In this document: positions 9,778 through 12,706 of the stretch, piece by piece
Layout: each line of letters begins with the position of its first letter
Numbering within the stretch: position 1 is the first letter of the stretch
Origin: Escherichia phage vB_vPM_PD06
Sequence record: NC_052653.1
DNA: 64,000 nucleotides
Direction: 5' to 3' (one strand)
Made by a program: the position numbers and the translations under genes
Notes under the pieces: model-generated
Database searches by the model: none
Told to the model about the DNA's origin: nothing
The model's input: only the letters and a program-made list of their open reading frames with translations

Positions 9778-9854
9778 ATAATAAGTACACCACTGTAAGA
9801 AGCCTCAATGTGCTATTGACAGTTAACCAAGTCTACTCCTTGGATGGTGTTATT

Positions 9855-9929
9855 TGGTGCAGAGAGATGGTAACGATCCATCCTTTCTACCTTTTCAGGG
9901 TAGCACTAATCCGTCTCAGCTATCTCTGC
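9855..9929 (-). tRNA. tRNA-Phe (anticodon GAA)
   Basis: Acceptor GCAGAGA/TCTCTGC, anticodon arm CTACC-CTGAAAA-GGTAG, non-canonical T-loop ATCGTTA, CCA encoded. Confidence 0.65.
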
Positions 9930-9934
9930 AAATT

Positions 9935-10010
9935 TGGTCAGTGCGGCAGGACTCGAACCTGCGACCTGAAGCGTCCAAGGCTCCCACGCTACCAACTGCG
10001 CTACGCACTG
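9935..10010 (-). tRNA. tRNA-Pro (anticodon TGG)
   Basis: Acceptor CAGTGCG/CGCACTG, anticodon loop CTTGGAC, T-arm GCAGG-TTCGAGT-CCTGC, CCA encoded. Confidence 0.8.
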
Positions 10011-10017
10011 TAAATCT

Positions 10018-10092
10018 TGGCTGGAGATCTAGGAATCGAACCTAGTCATCACGACTTCAAAGGCCGTTGCCTTCCCACTAGGCTAATCTCCA
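10018..10092 (-). tRNA. tRNA-Gln (anticodon TTG)
   Basis: Acceptor TGGAGAT/ATCTCCA, anticodon arm ACGGC-CTTTGAA-GTCGT, T-arm CTAGG-TTCGATT-CCTAG, CCA encoded. Confidence 0.8.
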
Positions 10093-10523
10093 ATAAATTA
10101 CTTCAGTGTTACCACAAAGTGACGAACTGCTTTTCGTGCAGCAGAAGCCAGAGGCTTAGCATACTTAAGTTCATCTTTTTCCATTATAAATTCTCTTTTA
10201 AATGAAAATGCAGGACTTATTGGCATTGCCTGCGCAAGCCCTCAAGGGGAACATAGGTTTTTGGATATTTAACGACCAGGATAACCATAAACCCGTCATC
10301 ATTCACATTCAAGAGGTACACCATAAAACTGCCGGGGTCTTAAAACTATAATGATTCGCAAATCATTAATCAGACAGTTCGATGGCTCCTCGATTTTAGC
10401 TCACACTAAGGCAGTGAATCTCCAATAAACTAAAAAATCACTTAAAAAGAACCGCTAGAGTTTGAAGGAGAAAACCATGAGCGAAAAGAGAAATTTTCTC
10501 TAGCGATTCCATTTAAATAATCT

Positions 10524-10598
10524 TGGAGCGAGTAACAGGACTTGAACCTGCACCTGGAGGGTGGAAACCTCATATGCTACCATTAACACTATACCCGC
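10524..10598 (-). tRNA. tRNA-Gly (anticodon TCC)
   Basis: Acceptor GCGGGTA/TACTCGC, anticodon loop TTTCCAC, T-arm GCAGG-TTCAAGT-CCTGT, CCA encoded. Confidence 0.75.
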
Positions 10599-10653
10599 TT
10601 AACAATATTACTCTAACATACTATTAGCCCCTTTGTCAAGAGGCTTTTGATAC

Positions 10654-10983
10654 TTATTTTAAAATAGTAGATGCACCACGTCTGTTTAGATATGCAATAG
10701 TAAAGTCCAAATCACCTATTTCTTCAGGTTCCCACTGACCTTCTAAGCCATAACAAGAACAATGATATGCGTGTACTTCATAAAACAAAGATGTTTTCAT
10801 ATCATAAAAATAAACGTGAGATTCACCTTCATAATATGCACAATCATAAGTGGCAGAAAGAATTACAATGTTATCCTTATCTAACTCTACTTCATAATAT
10901 CTTTCAACATCTTCAATATCATCAAAACCATCGAAAACATTGATATTAAAATATTTCTCTAACTCTTTTTCTGTCACATACAC
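10654..10983 (-). CDS. Hypothetical protein embedded in tRNA array
   Basis: 109-aa ORF between tRNA-Gly and tRNA-Thr; Cys/Tyr-rich; no motif recognised. Confidence 0.5.
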   Translation of the reverse strand: MYVTEKELEKYFNINVFDGFDDIEDVERYYEVELDKDNIVILSATYDCAYYEGESHVYFYDMKTSLFYEVHAYHCSCYGLEGQWEPEEIGDLDFTIAYLNRRGASTILK

Positions 10984-10990
10984 TCCTTTA

Positions 10991-11065
10991 GAGTTAAAAT
11001 TGGTGCTCCCACAAGGACTCGAACCCTGATAAGTTGCTTACAAGGCAACCGTAATAGCCGTTATA
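10991..11065 (-). tRNA. tRNA-Thr (anticodon TGT)
   Basis: Acceptor GCTCCTA/TGGGAGC, anticodon arm GTTGC-CTTGTAA-GCAAC, T-loop TTCGAGT, CCA encoded. Confidence 0.8.
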
Positions 11066-11071
11066 CGATAG

Positions 11072-11148
11072 GAGCAATACTTGGACTCGGCAGGATTCGA
11101 TACCTGCAATTCCAGAAGCCTCTTGGCGACTGGGGGTTTACCTTAACT
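11072..11148 (-). tRNA. tRNA-like element, identity undetermined
   Basis: Acceptor GGACTTG/CGAGTCC pairs well; T-arm-like GCAGG-TATCGAAT-CCTGC with 8-nt loop; no canonical anticodon arm found by hand; CCA not encoded. Confidence 0.3.
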
Positions 11149-11155
11149 CTACAAG

Positions 11156-11240
11156 TCCATAATTCTGGCGATGGATCAAGGATTTGAACCTTGCTAGAAC
11201 TTTCGTTCACGGATTAACAGTCCGTCGCCCAACCACTAGG
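11156..11240 (-). tRNA. tRNA with anticodon GTT (Asn-type) and long extra arm
   Basis: Acceptor GATGGAT/ATCCATC, anticodon arm ACGGA-CTGTTAA-TCCGT, 15-nt variable region containing hairpin GAAC-GAAA-GTTC, T-loop TTCAAAT, CCA encoded. Confidence 0.55.
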
Positions 11241-11247
11241 CCAATCC

Positions 11248-11334
11248 ATCTTTAATTTGGTGCAGGTAGTTGGACTCGAACCAACGAAGCCCCGAAGGGC
11301 AAGAGATTTACAGTCTCCAGCAATTGCCGCTATG
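11248..11334 (-). tRNA. tRNA-Tyr (anticodon GTA)
   Basis: Acceptor GTAGGTA/TACCTGC, anticodon arm GGAGA-CTGTAAA-TCTCT, long variable arm, T-loop TTCGAGT, CCA encoded. Confidence 0.8.
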
Positions 11335-11339
11335 CGATA

Positions 11340-11415
11340 CCTACGTGTTTGGTACATCGTGAAGGATTCGAACCTTCGACCTTGGAGTTAAAAGCACCTT
11401 GCTCTACCAACTAAG
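11340..11415 (-). tRNA. tRNA-Lys (anticodon TTT)
   Basis: Perfect acceptor ACATCGT/ACGATGT, D-arm GCTT-AGTTGGTA-GAGC, anticodon loop CTTTTAA (stem has two mismatches), T-arm GAAGG-TTCGAAT-CCTTC, CCA encoded. Confidence 0.6.
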
Positions 11416-11559
11416 CTAACGATGTATAAATTATCTTTAAAATAGCCAGTGTTTGCGGCACTTAGCTATGAAGTATTGGGGTATCGGTAAAGTGGTTACC
11501 GCCACTTGCCGAAAGTTTACTCTGCTAAAGTAAGATTACAAGCTACATTAAAGATAACT

Positions 11560-11645
11560 TGGCGGTAGATGTAGGACTTGAACCTACACGCCGTTTCCGA
11601 CGACAGTTTAGCAAACTGTTGTGGCTACCATTTCACCAATCTACC
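11560..11645 (-). tRNA. tRNA-Ser (anticodon GCT)
   Basis: Acceptor GGTAGAT/ATCTACC, anticodon arm ACAGT-TTGCTAA-ACTGT, long variable arm, T-loop TTCAAGT, CCA encoded. Confidence 0.8.
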
Positions 11646-11653
11646 GTTCTTAA

Positions 11654-11806
11654 TTATTCAAAACAACCGGAATCTTTTTGTTCTGCTTTTACCATACGAA
11701 TATTTTTACCATCTTCAGATTGTTGAAGATTAGAATACTCATAAACAACTTTATTATCTACAATCTTAACTCCGGTAACAACCTGTCCAATAGTTTTATA
11801 ATTCAT
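11654..11806 (-). CDS. Small hypothetical protein
   Basis: About 50-aa ORF from ATG (MNYKTIG...) with AGGAG upstream; the longer track ORF would overlap tRNA-Ser. Confidence 0.35.
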   Translation of the reverse strand: MNYKTIGQVVTGVKIVDNKVVYEYSNLQQSEDGKNIRMVKAEQKDSGCFE

Positions 11807-11824
11807 AAAGCTCCTAGTTGAATT

Positions 11825-11914
11825 TGGAGGAAGATAATGGAGTCGAACCATCACCGTATCGCTACAATGGGCCAGGGTTCAAACCTGGTTGCGCACCGCT
11901 GCGCCCTACCTTCC
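11825..11914 (-). tRNA. tRNA-Ser (anticodon TGA)
   Basis: Acceptor GGAAGGT/ATCTTCC, anticodon arm CCAGG-TTTGAAC-CCTGG, long variable arm, T-arm GATGG-TTCGACT-CCATT, CCA encoded. Confidence 0.7.
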
Positions 11915-11975
11915 CGTTATCATACTTTAAATCTAACATAAAACTATCTTGCTTGTCAAGTAGTTTTTAAAACTT

Positions 11976-12057
11976 TTTGGTCGGGGTGACAGGATTCGAA
12001 CCTGCATACTCCAATTACTCGGTTAACGCCTGATTAGAAGTCAGGTGAGATACACCC
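11976..12057 (-). tRNA. Atypical tRNA-like gene, possibly Arg (TCT)
   Basis: Perfect acceptor CGGGGTG/CACCCCG, T-arm GCAGG-TTCGAAT-CCTGT, CCA encoded, hairpin CCTGA-CTTCTAA-TCAGG; no room for a normal D-arm. Confidence 0.4.
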
Positions 12058-12239
12058 CGTTTTCACAGTAACTATAACAAAAAACTAAGTGAATGTCAAG
12101 ATATTTTTACTAAAATTATTATTTAAATTGAAGCCTAGTTATGGAATCGAACCATATTTCGTATTTAGTTAGACAAAGCGGTCTAACATATTTTTCAGGC
12201 TTTGATGGCCTCGGAATTACCAAATACCCTACTAGGCGT

Positions 12240-12325
12240 TGGTGCAAGTGGAGGGATTCGAACCCTCAATCATTTAAGCGTTGCGTTTTAAGCACAATGT
12301 GTATCACCAATTCCACCACACTTGC
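12240..12325 (-). tRNA. tRNA-Leu (anticodon TAA)
   Basis: Perfect acceptor GCAAGTG/CACTTGC, anticodon arm TTGTG-CTTAAAA-CGCAA, long variable arm, T-arm GAGGG-TTCGAAT-CCCTC, CCA encoded. Confidence 0.75.
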
Positions 12326-12356
12326 ATATAGGAGATGCATAGCATCTCCTTTTAAA

Positions 12357-12432
12357 TGGTGGTTCCCCAGGGTTACAATCCCTGCCCTCGACACTTATGA
12401 GGTGTGCGCTCTCGTCAGTGAGCTATGGAACC
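12357..12432 (-). tRNA. tRNA with CAT anticodon (Met or Ile2), non-canonical T-loop
   Basis: D-arm GCTC-ACTGACGA-GAGC, anticodon loop CTCATAA, T-arm CAGGG-ATTGTAA-CCCTG, acceptor GGTTCCA/GGGAACC, CCA encoded. Confidence 0.65.
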
Positions 12433-12439
12433 TTGAATA

Positions 12440-12706
12440 TTAAGCATACTGGGTCATTTCACCAGCTTCGCGTTTCTCCAGAAGAACTGTAATCAAAGCA
12501 ATAGCTGCTTCTTCTTCGTGAGGAAGCCCCATTTCATCCAGAAGAGCAAGGAAGTCAATTACCAAACTTTCTGTTTTAAGGCTAACGCTACCATTTTCGT
12601 TTTCAGTAAGAACTGATTCAGGTTCAAAAATAAAGATTGCTCCACCTTTATTATCAATCAATACGTGCTTCTCAATCAGTTCTTTACCATAAGTACGTTC
12701 TGTCAT
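12440..12706 (-). CDS. Hypothetical protein
   Basis: 88-aa ORF directly upstream of tRNA array on same strand. Confidence 0.5.
   Translation of the reverse strand: MTERTYGKELIEKHVLIDNKGGAIFIFEPESVLTENENGSVSLKTESLVIDFLALLDEMGLPHEEEAAIALITVLLEKREAGEMTQYA

What the first reader, a model, noticed from the sequence alone, without database searches (positions are those of the whole stretch)
11976..12057. tRNA-like gene with canonical acceptor and T-arm but no room for a normal D-arm
Acceptor stem, T-arm and encoded CCA are textbook, and an anticodon-like hairpin gives TCT (Arg). However that hairpin starts only 7 nt after the acceptor stem, leaving no D-arm and about 23 nt between anticodon hairpin and T-arm. 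It could be a degenerate tRNA, a tRNA mimic or a processing substrate.
Basis: seen in the sequence. Interest (0 to 1): 0.4.

Follow-up and report, generated by a model that had tools for sequence, protein, structure and literature searches.

The report
Phage arginine tRNA with rewired D-arm
This is a real, strongly conserved phage gene for an arginine tRNA (anticodon UCU) whose D-arm is not missing but rewired, so that its two strands pair around the anticodon arm; I found no description of such a fold, which departs from the cloverleaf outside mitochondria.

Summary
On the minus strand at 11978-12059 (2 nt from the given coordinates) lies a tRNA-like gene. It has a 7-bp acceptor stem, a canonical T-arm, A73-CCA and a CUUCUAA anticodon loop (UCU) that starts 7 nt after the acceptor stem, with 23 nt before the T-arm. 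Rfam tRNA scores 40 bits (gathering score 29); ARAGORN misses it.

It is not degenerate. The window is a phi92-like coliphage. The same 78-79-nt element sits in tRNA clusters of many unrelated phages: FelixO1-like, rV5-like, N4-like, Sugarlandvirus, jumbo, Streptomyces phages and metagenomic contigs.

In 64 distinct sequences, positions 11-13 pair with 40-42 in 64/64 cases, in ten different complementary combinations. This D-stem-like helix encloses the anticodon arm. The "variable hairpin" of the energy-based fold is not supported.

The segment after the helix (UAAUUGGAG) reads like an arginine-tRNA D-loop, with G18, G19 and A20. Every anticodon in this Arg alignment is an arginine one.

My best reading is a functional tRNA-Arg that decodes AGA (23.5% of Arg codons here) with a permuted but probably L-shape-compatible core. 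Expression and charging were not tested. I found no published description.

The parts
12071..12099 (-). Sigma-70-like promoter TTGACA-17 nt-TATAGT with a TG extension. Its -10 hexamer ends 11 nt upstream of the mature 5' end.
   Evidence: 11 of 12 consensus matches, the best site in 9300-12700. It is retained with the element in phage Paula. This is a consensus match only; activity is inferred.
12053..12059 (-). Acceptor stem, 5' strand (CGGGGUG, positions 1-7).
   Evidence: Pairs with 11982-11988. Across the family 99.3% of cells are paired, and all 7 pairs show changes on both sides.
12050..12052 (-). U8 A9 U10 connector, invariant in 64/64 family sequences.
   Evidence: The proposed U8-A44 contact, equivalent to the canonical U8-A14, is an inference.
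12046..12049 (-). 5' strand of the long-range D-stem-like helix (C11 U12 C13, plus A14).
   Evidence: 11:42, 12:41 and 13:40 are paired in 64/64 sequences, with 1, 27 and 12 double changes and none broken; 14:39 is A.C (36), C.A (12), A-U (5), C-G (5), U.G (4).
12029..12045 (-). Anticodon arm CCUGA-CUUCUAA-UCAGG. The anticodon UCU is at 12036-12038.
   Evidence: All 5 stem pairs show compensatory changes. U33, C35 and A37 are invariant.
12022..12028 (-). Conserved 7-nt bulge or linker C-R-U-U-A-A-N between the anticodon stem and the 3' strand of the D-like helix.
   Evidence: C32, U34, A36 and A37 are invariant in 64/64. Its role, possibly filling the variable-loop position in the core, is an inference.
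12018..12021 (-). 3' strand of the D-stem-like helix (C39, G40 A41 G42).
   Evidence: see the 5' strand. Mutual information of 12:41 is 1.53 bits, the third highest of all column pairs.
12006..12017 (-). D-loop-like segment U-A-A-U-U-G-G-A-G followed by U-A-U. It contains equivalents of G18, G19 and A20.
   Evidence: UAA, GG and GUAU are invariant, and the A after GG occurs in 63/64. Canonical phage tRNA-Arg D-loops read A-R-U-(U)-G-G-A-U-A. The Ile-type relatives have GGUU instead.
11989..12005 (-). T-arm GCAGG-UUCGAAU-CCUGU.
   Evidence: 99.1% paired, and U54 U55 C56 G57 A58 are invariant.
11982..11988 (-). Acceptor stem, 3' strand (CACCCCG).
11978..11981 (-). Discriminator A73 and the encoded CCA.
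   Evidence: In the family the discriminator is A in 30 and G in 28 of 64. CCA is encoded in about two thirds of the distinct sequences.

Best explanation
The element is a functional phage tRNA-Arg(UCU) with a rewired core. It is probably transcribed from its own sigma-70-type promoter and matured like other tRNAs. This would give a 79-nt body plus an encoded CCA.

Instead of a D hairpin between the acceptor and anticodon arms, nucleotides 11-13(14) pair with nucleotides (39)40-42, which lie after the anticodon arm. The short D-stem-like helix is therefore continuous with, and stacks on, the anticodon stem. The count is 3 Watson-Crick pairs, an A.C-type 14:39 pair, 5 anticodon-stem pairs and possibly U10.U43. 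That is the same ten layers as the D-stem, the 26.44 pair and the anticodon stem of a normal tRNA.

The strand leaving this helix then runs through a D-loop-like sequence, A-A-U-U-G-G-A-G. Its GG can dock on the T-loop as G18/G19 do, and its A sits where A20, the main ArgRS determinant, would be. The chain then enters the T-stem.

Relative to a cloverleaf, segment 10-21 (D-stem 5' strand plus D-loop) and segment 22-43 (D-stem 3' strand plus anticodon arm) have exchanged order. The three-dimensional L could be preserved.

Host ArgRS would charge it through A20-like A50, C35, U36 and A73. It would read AGA, a codon that is rare in E. coli and common in this AT-rich phage.

Shown: the sequence features, the covarying helix, the arginine-only anticodons, and the way it complements the canonical tRNA sets.

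Inferred: the transcription start, the tertiary contacts, the L-shape, charging, and use on the ribosome.
For: 1. Family. A covariance model built from 7 seeds, with only the acceptor, anticodon and T stems specified, found about 90 hits of 52-106 bits in about 160 phage loci. Ordinary tRNAs scored below 45 bits. This gave 66 distinct sequences.

2. Hosts. The GenBank records are unrelated phages: Justusliebigvirus, Felixounavirus, Vequintavirinae, a 348-kb jumbo phage, Streptomyces Karimacvirus, N4-like phages and Sugarlandvirus. The element lies inside a tRNA cluster in the loci examined and is almost never annotated.

3. Helix. Pairs 11:42, 12:41 and 13:40 are paired in 64/64 sequences, with 1, 27 and 12 double changes and no single-sided or broken cases. 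Ten complementary triplet combinations occur. Mutual information of 12:41 is 1.53 bits, on a par with the acceptor and anticodon stems.

4. D-loop likeness. The invariant UAA-N-UGGAGUAU resembles the D-loops of canonical phage tRNA-Arg, AGUUGGAUA.

5. Arginine identity. Positions matching the published set (A20, C35, U/G36, A/G73; PMC9976931) are A50 in 63/64, C35 in 64/64, U or G at 36 in 64/64, and A or G at 73 in 58/64.

6. Anticodons. In the 64-sequence alignment they are UCU 59, CCU 2, UCG 2 and ACG 1. Divergent members add GCG. All are arginine anticodons.

7. Complementarity. Loci with a UCU member almost never carry a canonical tRNA-Arg(UCU); L046 is the exception. They often carry canonical Arg ACG, UCG, GCG or CCU. 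L058 has GCG, UCG and CCU plus the rewired UCU. All 16 tRNAs annotated in that record (labels 001-016) lie in this cluster in the close relative PATM, with no other Arg.

8. Demand. AGA makes up 136 of 578 Arg codons (23.5%) in the window's ORFs.

9. Promoter. A near-consensus promoter lies directly upstream.

10. Retention. The element is kept in relatives that have lost the neighbouring 124 nt.
Against: There are no expression, end-mapping, aminoacylation or ribosome data; none are obtainable with these tools. The helix is only 3 Watson-Crick pairs, and neither RNAfold nor RNAalifold predicts it. The proposed tertiary equivalences (U8-A44, A45-U54, GG to the T-loop) involve invariant positions, so covariation cannot test them. 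My test of re-ordering the segments into a cloverleaf discriminates weakly. ARAGORN called 64/64 as tRNA-Arg with a mean score of 115.1, but also 557/640 controls with that segment shuffled, with a mean of 107.4. An engineered D-armless tRNA needed a pnp mutation to work in E. coli (PMC11551756), so odd tRNAs can be unstable in this host. Why the rewiring is maintained is unexplained.
Confidence: 0.75

Rival explanations
1. It is a tRNA-Arg mimic or decoy that is made but not used in translation. For example, it could soak up or block a host enzyme that targets tRNA-Arg, such as an anticodon nuclease of the colicin D type, or another tRNA-binding factor.
For: It has a non-canonical core together with a perfectly conserved arginine anticodon loop, CUUCUAA. 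Phage tRNAs are known to counter tRNA-targeting defences (titles and abstracts of PMC10264068 and PMC11555353). ARAGORN does not accept it as a tRNA.
Against: A decoy would not need a covarying 7-bp acceptor stem, A/G73, an encoded CCA or an A20-like residue. It would also not need to complement the canonical Arg isoacceptors of the same phage. Instead the family fills the missing UCU or CCU slot. AGA is heavily used by the phage.
Confidence: 0.1
2. It is a D-armless, class-II-like tRNA as in the minimum-energy fold. There would be no D-stem at all, a 7-nt replacement loop and a short variable hairpin, CCGA-GUAA-UUGG, by analogy with the Y-shaped mitochondrial D-armless tRNAs.
For: This is the RNAfold minimum free energy and centroid structure for the window sequence. 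The hairpin carries a GNRA-type GUAA loop.
Against: Across 64 sequences the hairpin is paired in only 69.5% of cells. The 41:46 pair is broken in 32 sequences, and there is essentially no compensatory change. The competing 11-13:40-42 helix is paired in 64/64. RNAalifold does not predict the hairpin either.
Confidence: 0.05
3. It is a decaying tRNA-Arg pseudogene, left after a deletion or rearrangement in the D region.
For: Annotators label it tRNA-Undet or tRNA-OTHER, or leave it out. A second, truly variable tRNA-like element lies next to it.
Against: 27 columns are invariant and all four helices covary across phages of hosts as different as enterobacteria and Streptomyces. It has its own promoter. 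It is kept where neighbouring sequence is lost.
Confidence: 0.03
4. It is a processing or punctuation element. It would be a tRNA-shaped substrate that recruits RNase P and 3' nucleases to cut the cluster transcript, with no role for the anticodon.
For: It lies in a dense tRNA cluster and has a canonical acceptor/T minihelix, which is the part RNase P recognises.
Against: Processing would not constrain the anticodon loop, the arginine-only anticodons, the A20-like residue or the long-range helix. The element appears to have its own promoter and is flanked by ordinary tRNAs that already supply processing sites.
Confidence: 0.03

Closest known systems
Canonical bacterial and phage tRNA-Arg(UCU), such as E. 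coli argU, the phage T4 tRNA-Arg, and the canonical tRNA-Arg(tct) in locus L046
   Same: It shares the 7-bp acceptor stem, A/G73 and the CUUCUAA anticodon loop. The T-arm GCAGGUUCGAAUCCUG is almost identical to that of E. coli argU as I recall it. It has a GGA motif like the D-loop G18 G19 A20. The presumed job is also the same: reading AGA for an AT-rich phage.
   Different: The order of the segments differs. The D-stem strands flank the anticodon arm instead of forming a hairpin before it. There is a conserved 7-nt bulge, CRUUAAN. The D-loop-like segment leads directly into the T-stem. The secondary structure is a three-way junction, not a four-way one.
Mitochondrial D-armless tRNAs, such as mammalian mt-tRNA-Ser(AGY) and nematode mt-tRNAs (PMC9427863, PMC4013460)
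   Same: There is no D hairpin between the acceptor and anticodon stems, only a short 5' connector. By coincidence both decode AGN-box codons.
   Different: The mitochondrial tRNAs have truly lost the D-stem, the D-loop and the D/T-loop contact. They have a short variable region and rely on co-evolved organellar factors. This element keeps a covarying D-stem-like helix and a GG-containing D-loop-like segment. It would have to work with an unmodified bacterial cytoplasmic translation system.
Engineered D-armless 'mini HisT' in E. coli (PMC11551756)
   Same: It is a non-cloverleaf tRNA intended to work with E. coli synthetase, EF-Tu and ribosome.
   Different: Mini HisT is artificial, lacks bases 11-25 entirely, is predicted to be Y-shaped, and needed a pnp mutation. 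The phage element is natural, widespread and retains D-arm equivalents.
Circularly permuted tRNA genes of Cyanidioschyzon merolae (recalled from my own knowledge)
   Same: tRNA segments are encoded in a non-canonical order.
   Different: In that case the gene is permuted and processing restores a normal cloverleaf. Here the acceptor ends are at the gene ends, and the permutation must persist in the mature RNA.
allo-tRNAs and other unusual cloverleaves with 8/4 or 9/3 acceptor/T branches (PMC5389517, PMC7609411)
   Same: They are naturally occurring non-standard tRNAs found in bacteria, phages and metagenomes by sequence mining.
   Different: Those change arm lengths but keep the four-arm cloverleaf order. 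Here the arm lengths are standard (7/5) and the connectivity is changed.

Membership tests
tRNA (Rfam RF00005, canonical cloverleaf) | Score at or above the curated gathering threshold of the tRNA covariance model | tested here: met
   40.0 bits against a gathering score of 29, E=5.7e-05.
tRNA (Rfam RF00005, canonical cloverleaf) | 7-bp acceptor stem, a 5-bp T-stem with a UUCRANY loop, and a 5-bp anticodon stem with a 7-nt loop carrying U33 and R37 | tested here: met
   All three helices covary in 64 homologues.
tRNA (Rfam RF00005, canonical cloverleaf) | D-arm hairpin (positions 10-25) between the acceptor and anticodon arms | tested here: not met
   Only 7 nt separate the two arms. cmscan deletes the D-arm and ARAGORN makes no call.
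tRNA-Arg (E. coli-type arginine identity; PMC9976931) | C35 and U36/G36 in the anticodon, and A/G73 | tested here: met
   C35 in 64/64, U36 in 61 and G36 in 3, A73 in 30 and G73 in 28 of 64. The window has UCU and A73.
tRNA-Arg (E. coli-type arginine identity; PMC9976931) | A20 in the D-loop, immediately after G18 G19 | tested here: inconclusive
   A GGA motif is present, with the A in 63/64, and the Ile-type relatives have GGU. However, it lies after the anticodon arm. Whether it occupies the spatial position of A20 cannot be tested here.
tRNA-Arg (E. coli-type arginine identity; PMC9976931) | Arginylation by ArgRS | not testable with these tools
   This needs a biochemical assay.
Mitochondrial-type D-armless tRNA | Complete absence of the D-stem and D-loop, with a short replacement loop and a short variable region | tested here: not met
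   A covarying helix 11-13:40-42 is present in 64/64, and a conserved 12-nt GG-containing segment is present. The region between the anticodon and T arms is 23 nt.
Class II tRNA (long variable arm) | A base-paired variable arm supported by covariation | tested here: not met
   The candidate hairpin 38-41:46-49 is paired in 69.5% of cells, with essentially no compensatory change.
Permuted tRNA gene (Cyanidioschyzon type) | The 3' half is encoded upstream of the 5' half, so the acceptor strands are internal to the gene | tested here: not met
   The acceptor strands are at the two ends of the gene, followed by CCA.

The most novel reading that the evidence does not exclude
Many tailed phages, including well-studied FelixO1-, phi92-, rV5- and N4-like phages, use a translationally active tRNA whose core is topologically permuted. 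The D-stem strands are exchanged around the anticodon arm, and the D-loop is fused to the variable region. This would be the first natural non-cloverleaf elongator tRNA working with an ordinary bacterial cytoplasmic translation apparatus. The same design recurs for isoleucine (anticodons GAU and UAU) in crAss-like and other uncultured phages. The design may persist because it escapes host enzymes that recognise the canonical D-arm or elbow, such as tRNA-targeting defence nucleases or decay pathways. It may also spread with the homing endonuclease genes seen next to it.
Probability: 0.5. Interest if true: 0.9.

Novelty: new variant of a known kind. Interest (0 to 1): 0.8.

Why it matters
The cloverleaf is treated as universal outside mitochondria. 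[quoted passage not shown] A natural, conserved tRNA with rewired connectivity that must be accepted by host RNase P, ArgRS, EF-Tu and the ribosome would have several consequences.

1. It would show that tRNA core topology is more plastic than assumed.
2. It would give a ready-made natural scaffold for orthogonal or engineered tRNAs.
3. It would correct the annotation of apparently more than a hundred, and probably a few hundred, phage genomes in which the only tRNA-Arg(UCU) is missed or labelled "Undet" or "OTHER". That in turn changes analyses of phage codon usage against tRNA content.
4. It would raise a testable question: does the rewiring protect the tRNA from host tRNA-directed defences?

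Tried and rejected
1. Minimum-energy fold with a CCGA-GUAA-UUGG variable hairpin. Rejected by pair counts on 64 homologues.

2. RNAalifold on the family. It returns only the three classical stems, so it neither supports nor contradicts the 3-bp helix. The helix rests on explicit pair counts and mutual information.

3. A "re-ordering" test. I put the segments back into cloverleaf order and ran ARAGORN. All 64 were called tRNA-Arg, but 87% of the shuffled-segment controls were too. The test mostly reflects spacing and is only weak support.

4. A generic descriptor search for D-armless, rewired tRNAs in all fetched loci. It recovered the family and one Ile member, but also mis-parsed canonical tRNAs, so it is not usable as a census.

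5. A search of cellular genomes. There were only 6 hits in 185,579 species genomes, all on MAG contigs. There is no evidence for a cellular homologue.

6. Nine literature searches and reading of the 2020 review of non-canonical tRNAs. I found no description of this fold, only passing "tRNA-Undet" mentions in phage genome notes. Subscription-only papers are not covered.

7. The Shigella phage Sf14 paper. It lists an Arg_TCT at the syntenic position (after Ile-GAT, before Ser-TGA) with a high Arg isotype score. I did not establish whether that gene is canonical or rewired.

8. Rfam at a permissive threshold around the element. No family other than tRNA matched.

Full report
**What is there**

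The window is a phi92-like coliphage. It is 100% identical over 801 nt to Escherichia phage vB_vPM_PD114, genus Justusliebigvirus. A cluster of 15 ARAGORN-called tRNA genes lies on the minus strand at 9377-12432.

The flagged element lies inside that cluster on the minus strand at 11978-12059, 2 nt from the coordinates given. It reads:

CGGGGUG UAUCUCA CCUGA CUUCUAA UCAGG CGUUAACCGAGUAAUUGGAGUAU GCAGG UUCGAAU CCUGU CACCCCG A CCA.

- a 7-bp acceptor stem;
- a textbook T-arm;
- an encoded CCA;
- an anticodon hairpin giving UCU that starts 7 nt after the acceptor stem;
- 23 nt before the T-arm.

Rfam's tRNA model scores it 40 bits against a gathering score of 29. It does so only by deleting the D-arm and inserting 20 nt in the variable region. 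ARAGORN does not call it. Two close relatives annotate it as "tRNA-Undet" and "tRNA-OTHER"; others leave it unannotated.

**It is a conserved family, not a wreck**

BLAST with the element alone found full-length matches at 82-87% identity in phages with otherwise unrelated genomes:
- Felixounavirus (SPT-1, warpig, nataliec);
- Vequintavirinae (SSBI34, Proteus phage Mydo, Klebsiella K45PH128C2);
- a 348-kb jumbo coliphage (SHEFM2K);
- a Streptomyces phage (Enygma).

In the loci examined it lies inside a tRNA cluster, and it is almost always unannotated. A divergent member as query added N4-like phages, Sugarlandvirus and rV5-like phages.

Two pattern scans of IMG/VR brought in about 160 loci. 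I built a covariance model from seven seeds and specified only the three undisputed stems. It separated about 90 family hits (52-106 bits) from ordinary tRNAs (below 45 bits). This gave 66 distinct sequences.

A scan of one genome for each of 185,579 bacterial and archaeal species found only six hits, all on MAG contigs. On this evidence the family is a phage feature.

**The D-arm is rewired, not absent**

In an alignment of 64 distinct sequences of 78-79 nt, columns 11-13 of the 5' connector are complementary to columns 40-42, which lie after the anticodon arm. This holds in 64 of 64 sequences.

- The double changes number 1, 27 and 12 for the three pairs, with no single-sided or broken case.
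- Ten complementary combinations occur: CUC/GAG, CAC/GUG, CGC/GCG, CUU/AAG, CAG/CUG, CAU/AUG, CGG/CCG, CGU/ACG, CCC/GGG and UCC/GGA.
- Mutual information of 12:41 is 1.53 bits, the third highest of all column pairs and equal to the classical stems.
- The neighbouring 14:39 position switches between A.C (36), C.A (12), A-U (5), C-G (5) and U.G (4). This is what a wobble-geometry pair would do.
- The hairpin CCGA-GUAA-UUGG that RNAfold predicts for the window sequence is paired in only 69.5% of cells and shows essentially no compensatory change.
- RNAalifold predicts neither helix, as expected for a 3-bp long-range helix that depends on tertiary structure.

The secondary structure is therefore a three-way junction. 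The short helix encloses the anticodon arm, with one nucleotide on the 5' side and a conserved 7-nt bulge (C-R-U-U-A-A-N) on the 3' side.

**How this maps onto a normal tRNA (inference)**

The helix is continuous with the anticodon stem. The stack has possibly U10.U43, then three Watson-Crick pairs, then 14:39, then five anticodon-stem pairs. That makes ten layers, the same number as the D-stem, the 26.44 pair and the anticodon stem in a cloverleaf.

The strand that leaves the helix towards the elbow reads U-A-A-U-U-G-G-A-G-U-A-U and is nearly invariant. It resembles the D-loops of canonical phage tRNA-Arg genes in the same loci, A-G-U-U-G-G-A-U-A.

Relative to a cloverleaf, segment 10-21 and segment 22-43 have exchanged order. 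The D-loop's return path is fused to the end of the variable loop.

On this model:
- U8, A9 and U10 are invariant and could keep the core contacts;
- U8 could pair with A44, as the canonical U8-A14 pair does;
- A45 could pair with U54, as an A15-U48 Levitt pair does.

These positions do not vary, so covariation cannot test the contacts. They remain inferences.

A crude check was to re-order the segments into cloverleaf order. ARAGORN then called 64/64 as tRNA-Arg of 75-76 nt, against 0/64 for the native sequences. Controls with that segment shuffled were also called in 87% of cases, at lower scores (115.1 against 107.4). This is weak support only.

**It behaves like an arginine tRNA**

The anticodon loop is CUUCUAA in most members. 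Where the anticodon differs it is CCU, UCG, ACG or GCG, always an arginine anticodon and covering both arginine codon boxes.

The published arginine identity set is A20, C35, U/G36 and A/G73, with A20 the main determinant for E. coli ArgRS (PMC9976931). The family has:

| Identity position | Count in the family |
|---|---|
| A directly after GG (A20-like) | 63/64 |
| C35 | 64/64 |
| U or G at 36 | 64/64 |
| A or G at 73 | 58/64 |

The same rewired design also exists with isoleucine anticodons. GAU occurs in L111. UAU occurs in L097, in crAss-like phage cr130_1 and in bajarodcaudo virus 1. In those members the motif is GGUU, as I recall it is in E. coli tRNA-Ile.

Loci that carry a UCU member almost never carry a canonical tRNA-Arg(UCU); L046 is the one exception. 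They often carry canonical Arg isoacceptors for other codons. One Streptomyces-type locus has GCG, UCG and CCU plus the rewired UCU. All 16 tRNAs annotated in that record (labels 001-016) lie in this cluster in the close relative PATM, and none is Arg.

AGA accounts for 23.5% of arginine codons in the window's ORFs (136 of 578). From general knowledge, AGA is among the rarest codons in E. coli.

A near-consensus promoter, TTGACA-17-TATAGT with a TG extension, ends 11 nt upstream of the mature 5' end. The element and its promoter are retained in relatives that lack the adjacent 124 nt.

**Verdict**

The most likely explanation is a functional tRNA-Arg(UCU) that supplies AGA decoding for the phage, built on a permuted core that probably preserves the L-shape (confidence 0.75).

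Less likely readings are:
- a non-translating arginine-tRNA decoy (0.1);
- the energy-model fold without a D-stem (0.05);
- a pseudogene (0.03);
- a processing element (0.03).

Expression, maturation, charging and ribosomal use are all untested. The reason the rewiring is maintained is unknown. Evasion of tRNA-directed host enzymes and hitch-hiking with neighbouring homing endonuclease genes are speculations worth testing.

**Novelty**

Annotation pipelines see the gene but cannot classify it. In nine full-text searches and a reading of the 2020 review of non-canonical tRNAs I found no description of this architecture. A 2024 paper states that non-cloverleaf natural tRNAs are confined to mitochondria. 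Papers in subscription journals are not covered by the library, so prior description cannot be excluded.

I class it as a new variant of a known kind: a tRNA with a new connectivity. It is of high interest to tRNA and phage biologists.

Noticed in passing
window 12131-12238, minus strand: A second unannotated tRNA-like gene of about 105 nt. It has acceptor GCCUAGU/ACUAGGC, a D-arm with a UUUGGUAA loop, a 4-bp stem with the loop CAUCAAA (anticodon UCA, but A at position 33), a long variable arm with a 7-bp stem, and T-arm UAUGG-UUCGAUU-CCAUA. Neither ARAGORN nor Rfam calls it. The 124-nt stretch 12109-12232 is missing in close relatives such as phage Paula. Homologues at about 70% identity exist in Erwinia phage Hena1, where it is annotated tRNA-sup(tca), and in Salmonella phage UTK0002. 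The acceptor and D stems show compensatory changes. It may be an opal-suppressor-like tRNA or a decaying copy.
   Followed up: partly
L111 5865-5940 (-), L097 5506-5582 (+), L177 ~395-475, L178 ~395-475: The same rewired architecture occurs with isoleucine anticodons: UAU-CCC, then the anticodon arm, then GAAA-GGG, then UARYUGGUU, then the T-arm. GAU occurs once. UAU occurs three times, including crAss-like phage cr130_1 and bajarodcaudo virus 1. All are unannotated. The helix is CCC/GGG in all four, so there is no covariation within this subgroup yet.
   Followed up: partly
L057 3326-3402 and 3407-3493; L053 3291-3380: Divergent rewired Arg members with anticodons GCG, UCG and ACG. Two carry an additional true variable hairpin between the D-loop-like segment and the T-arm, and only 2 Watson-Crick pairs in the long-range helix.
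   Followed up: no
window 12099-12071, 11959-11930, 10639-10610, minus strand: Three near-consensus sigma-70-like promoters (10-11 of 12 matches, all with TG before the -10). Each lies directly upstream of a tRNA gene: the rewired Arg, Ser-UGA and Gly-UCC. This suggests several transcription units within the tRNA cluster.
   Followed up: partly
L004 1547-1945; L006 1601-1960; hit H120 (phage bumzen): HNH homing-endonuclease genes lie immediately downstream of the rewired tRNA-Arg in FelixO1-like and rV5-like phages. In warpig the annotated CDS start overlaps the tRNA's T-arm and is probably set too far upstream. This may be relevant to horizontal spread of the gene.
   Followed up: no
L011 10443-10536, L118 4054-4149, L144 7560-7650, L145 13332-13429: In some loci ARAGORN does call the family member, but as an over-long (91-98 nt) tRNA-Arg(tct) that borrows flanking sequence. 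This is a mis-folded call that could mislead annotation.
   Followed up: no
L149 8183-8255, minus strand: A different D-armless tRNA-like sequence with a CUUAAAA loop (UAA, Leu), a 9-nt connector and a 4-bp variable hairpin GGUC-AAUA-GACC. It is not of the rewired type.
   Followed up: no
window 11825-11914 and 12357-12432, minus strand: tRNA-Ser(UGA) and one tRNA-Met called by ARAGORN do not reach the Rfam tRNA gathering score. The Ser gene instead gives a sub-threshold tRNA-Sec match of 35 bits against 47.
   Followed up: no
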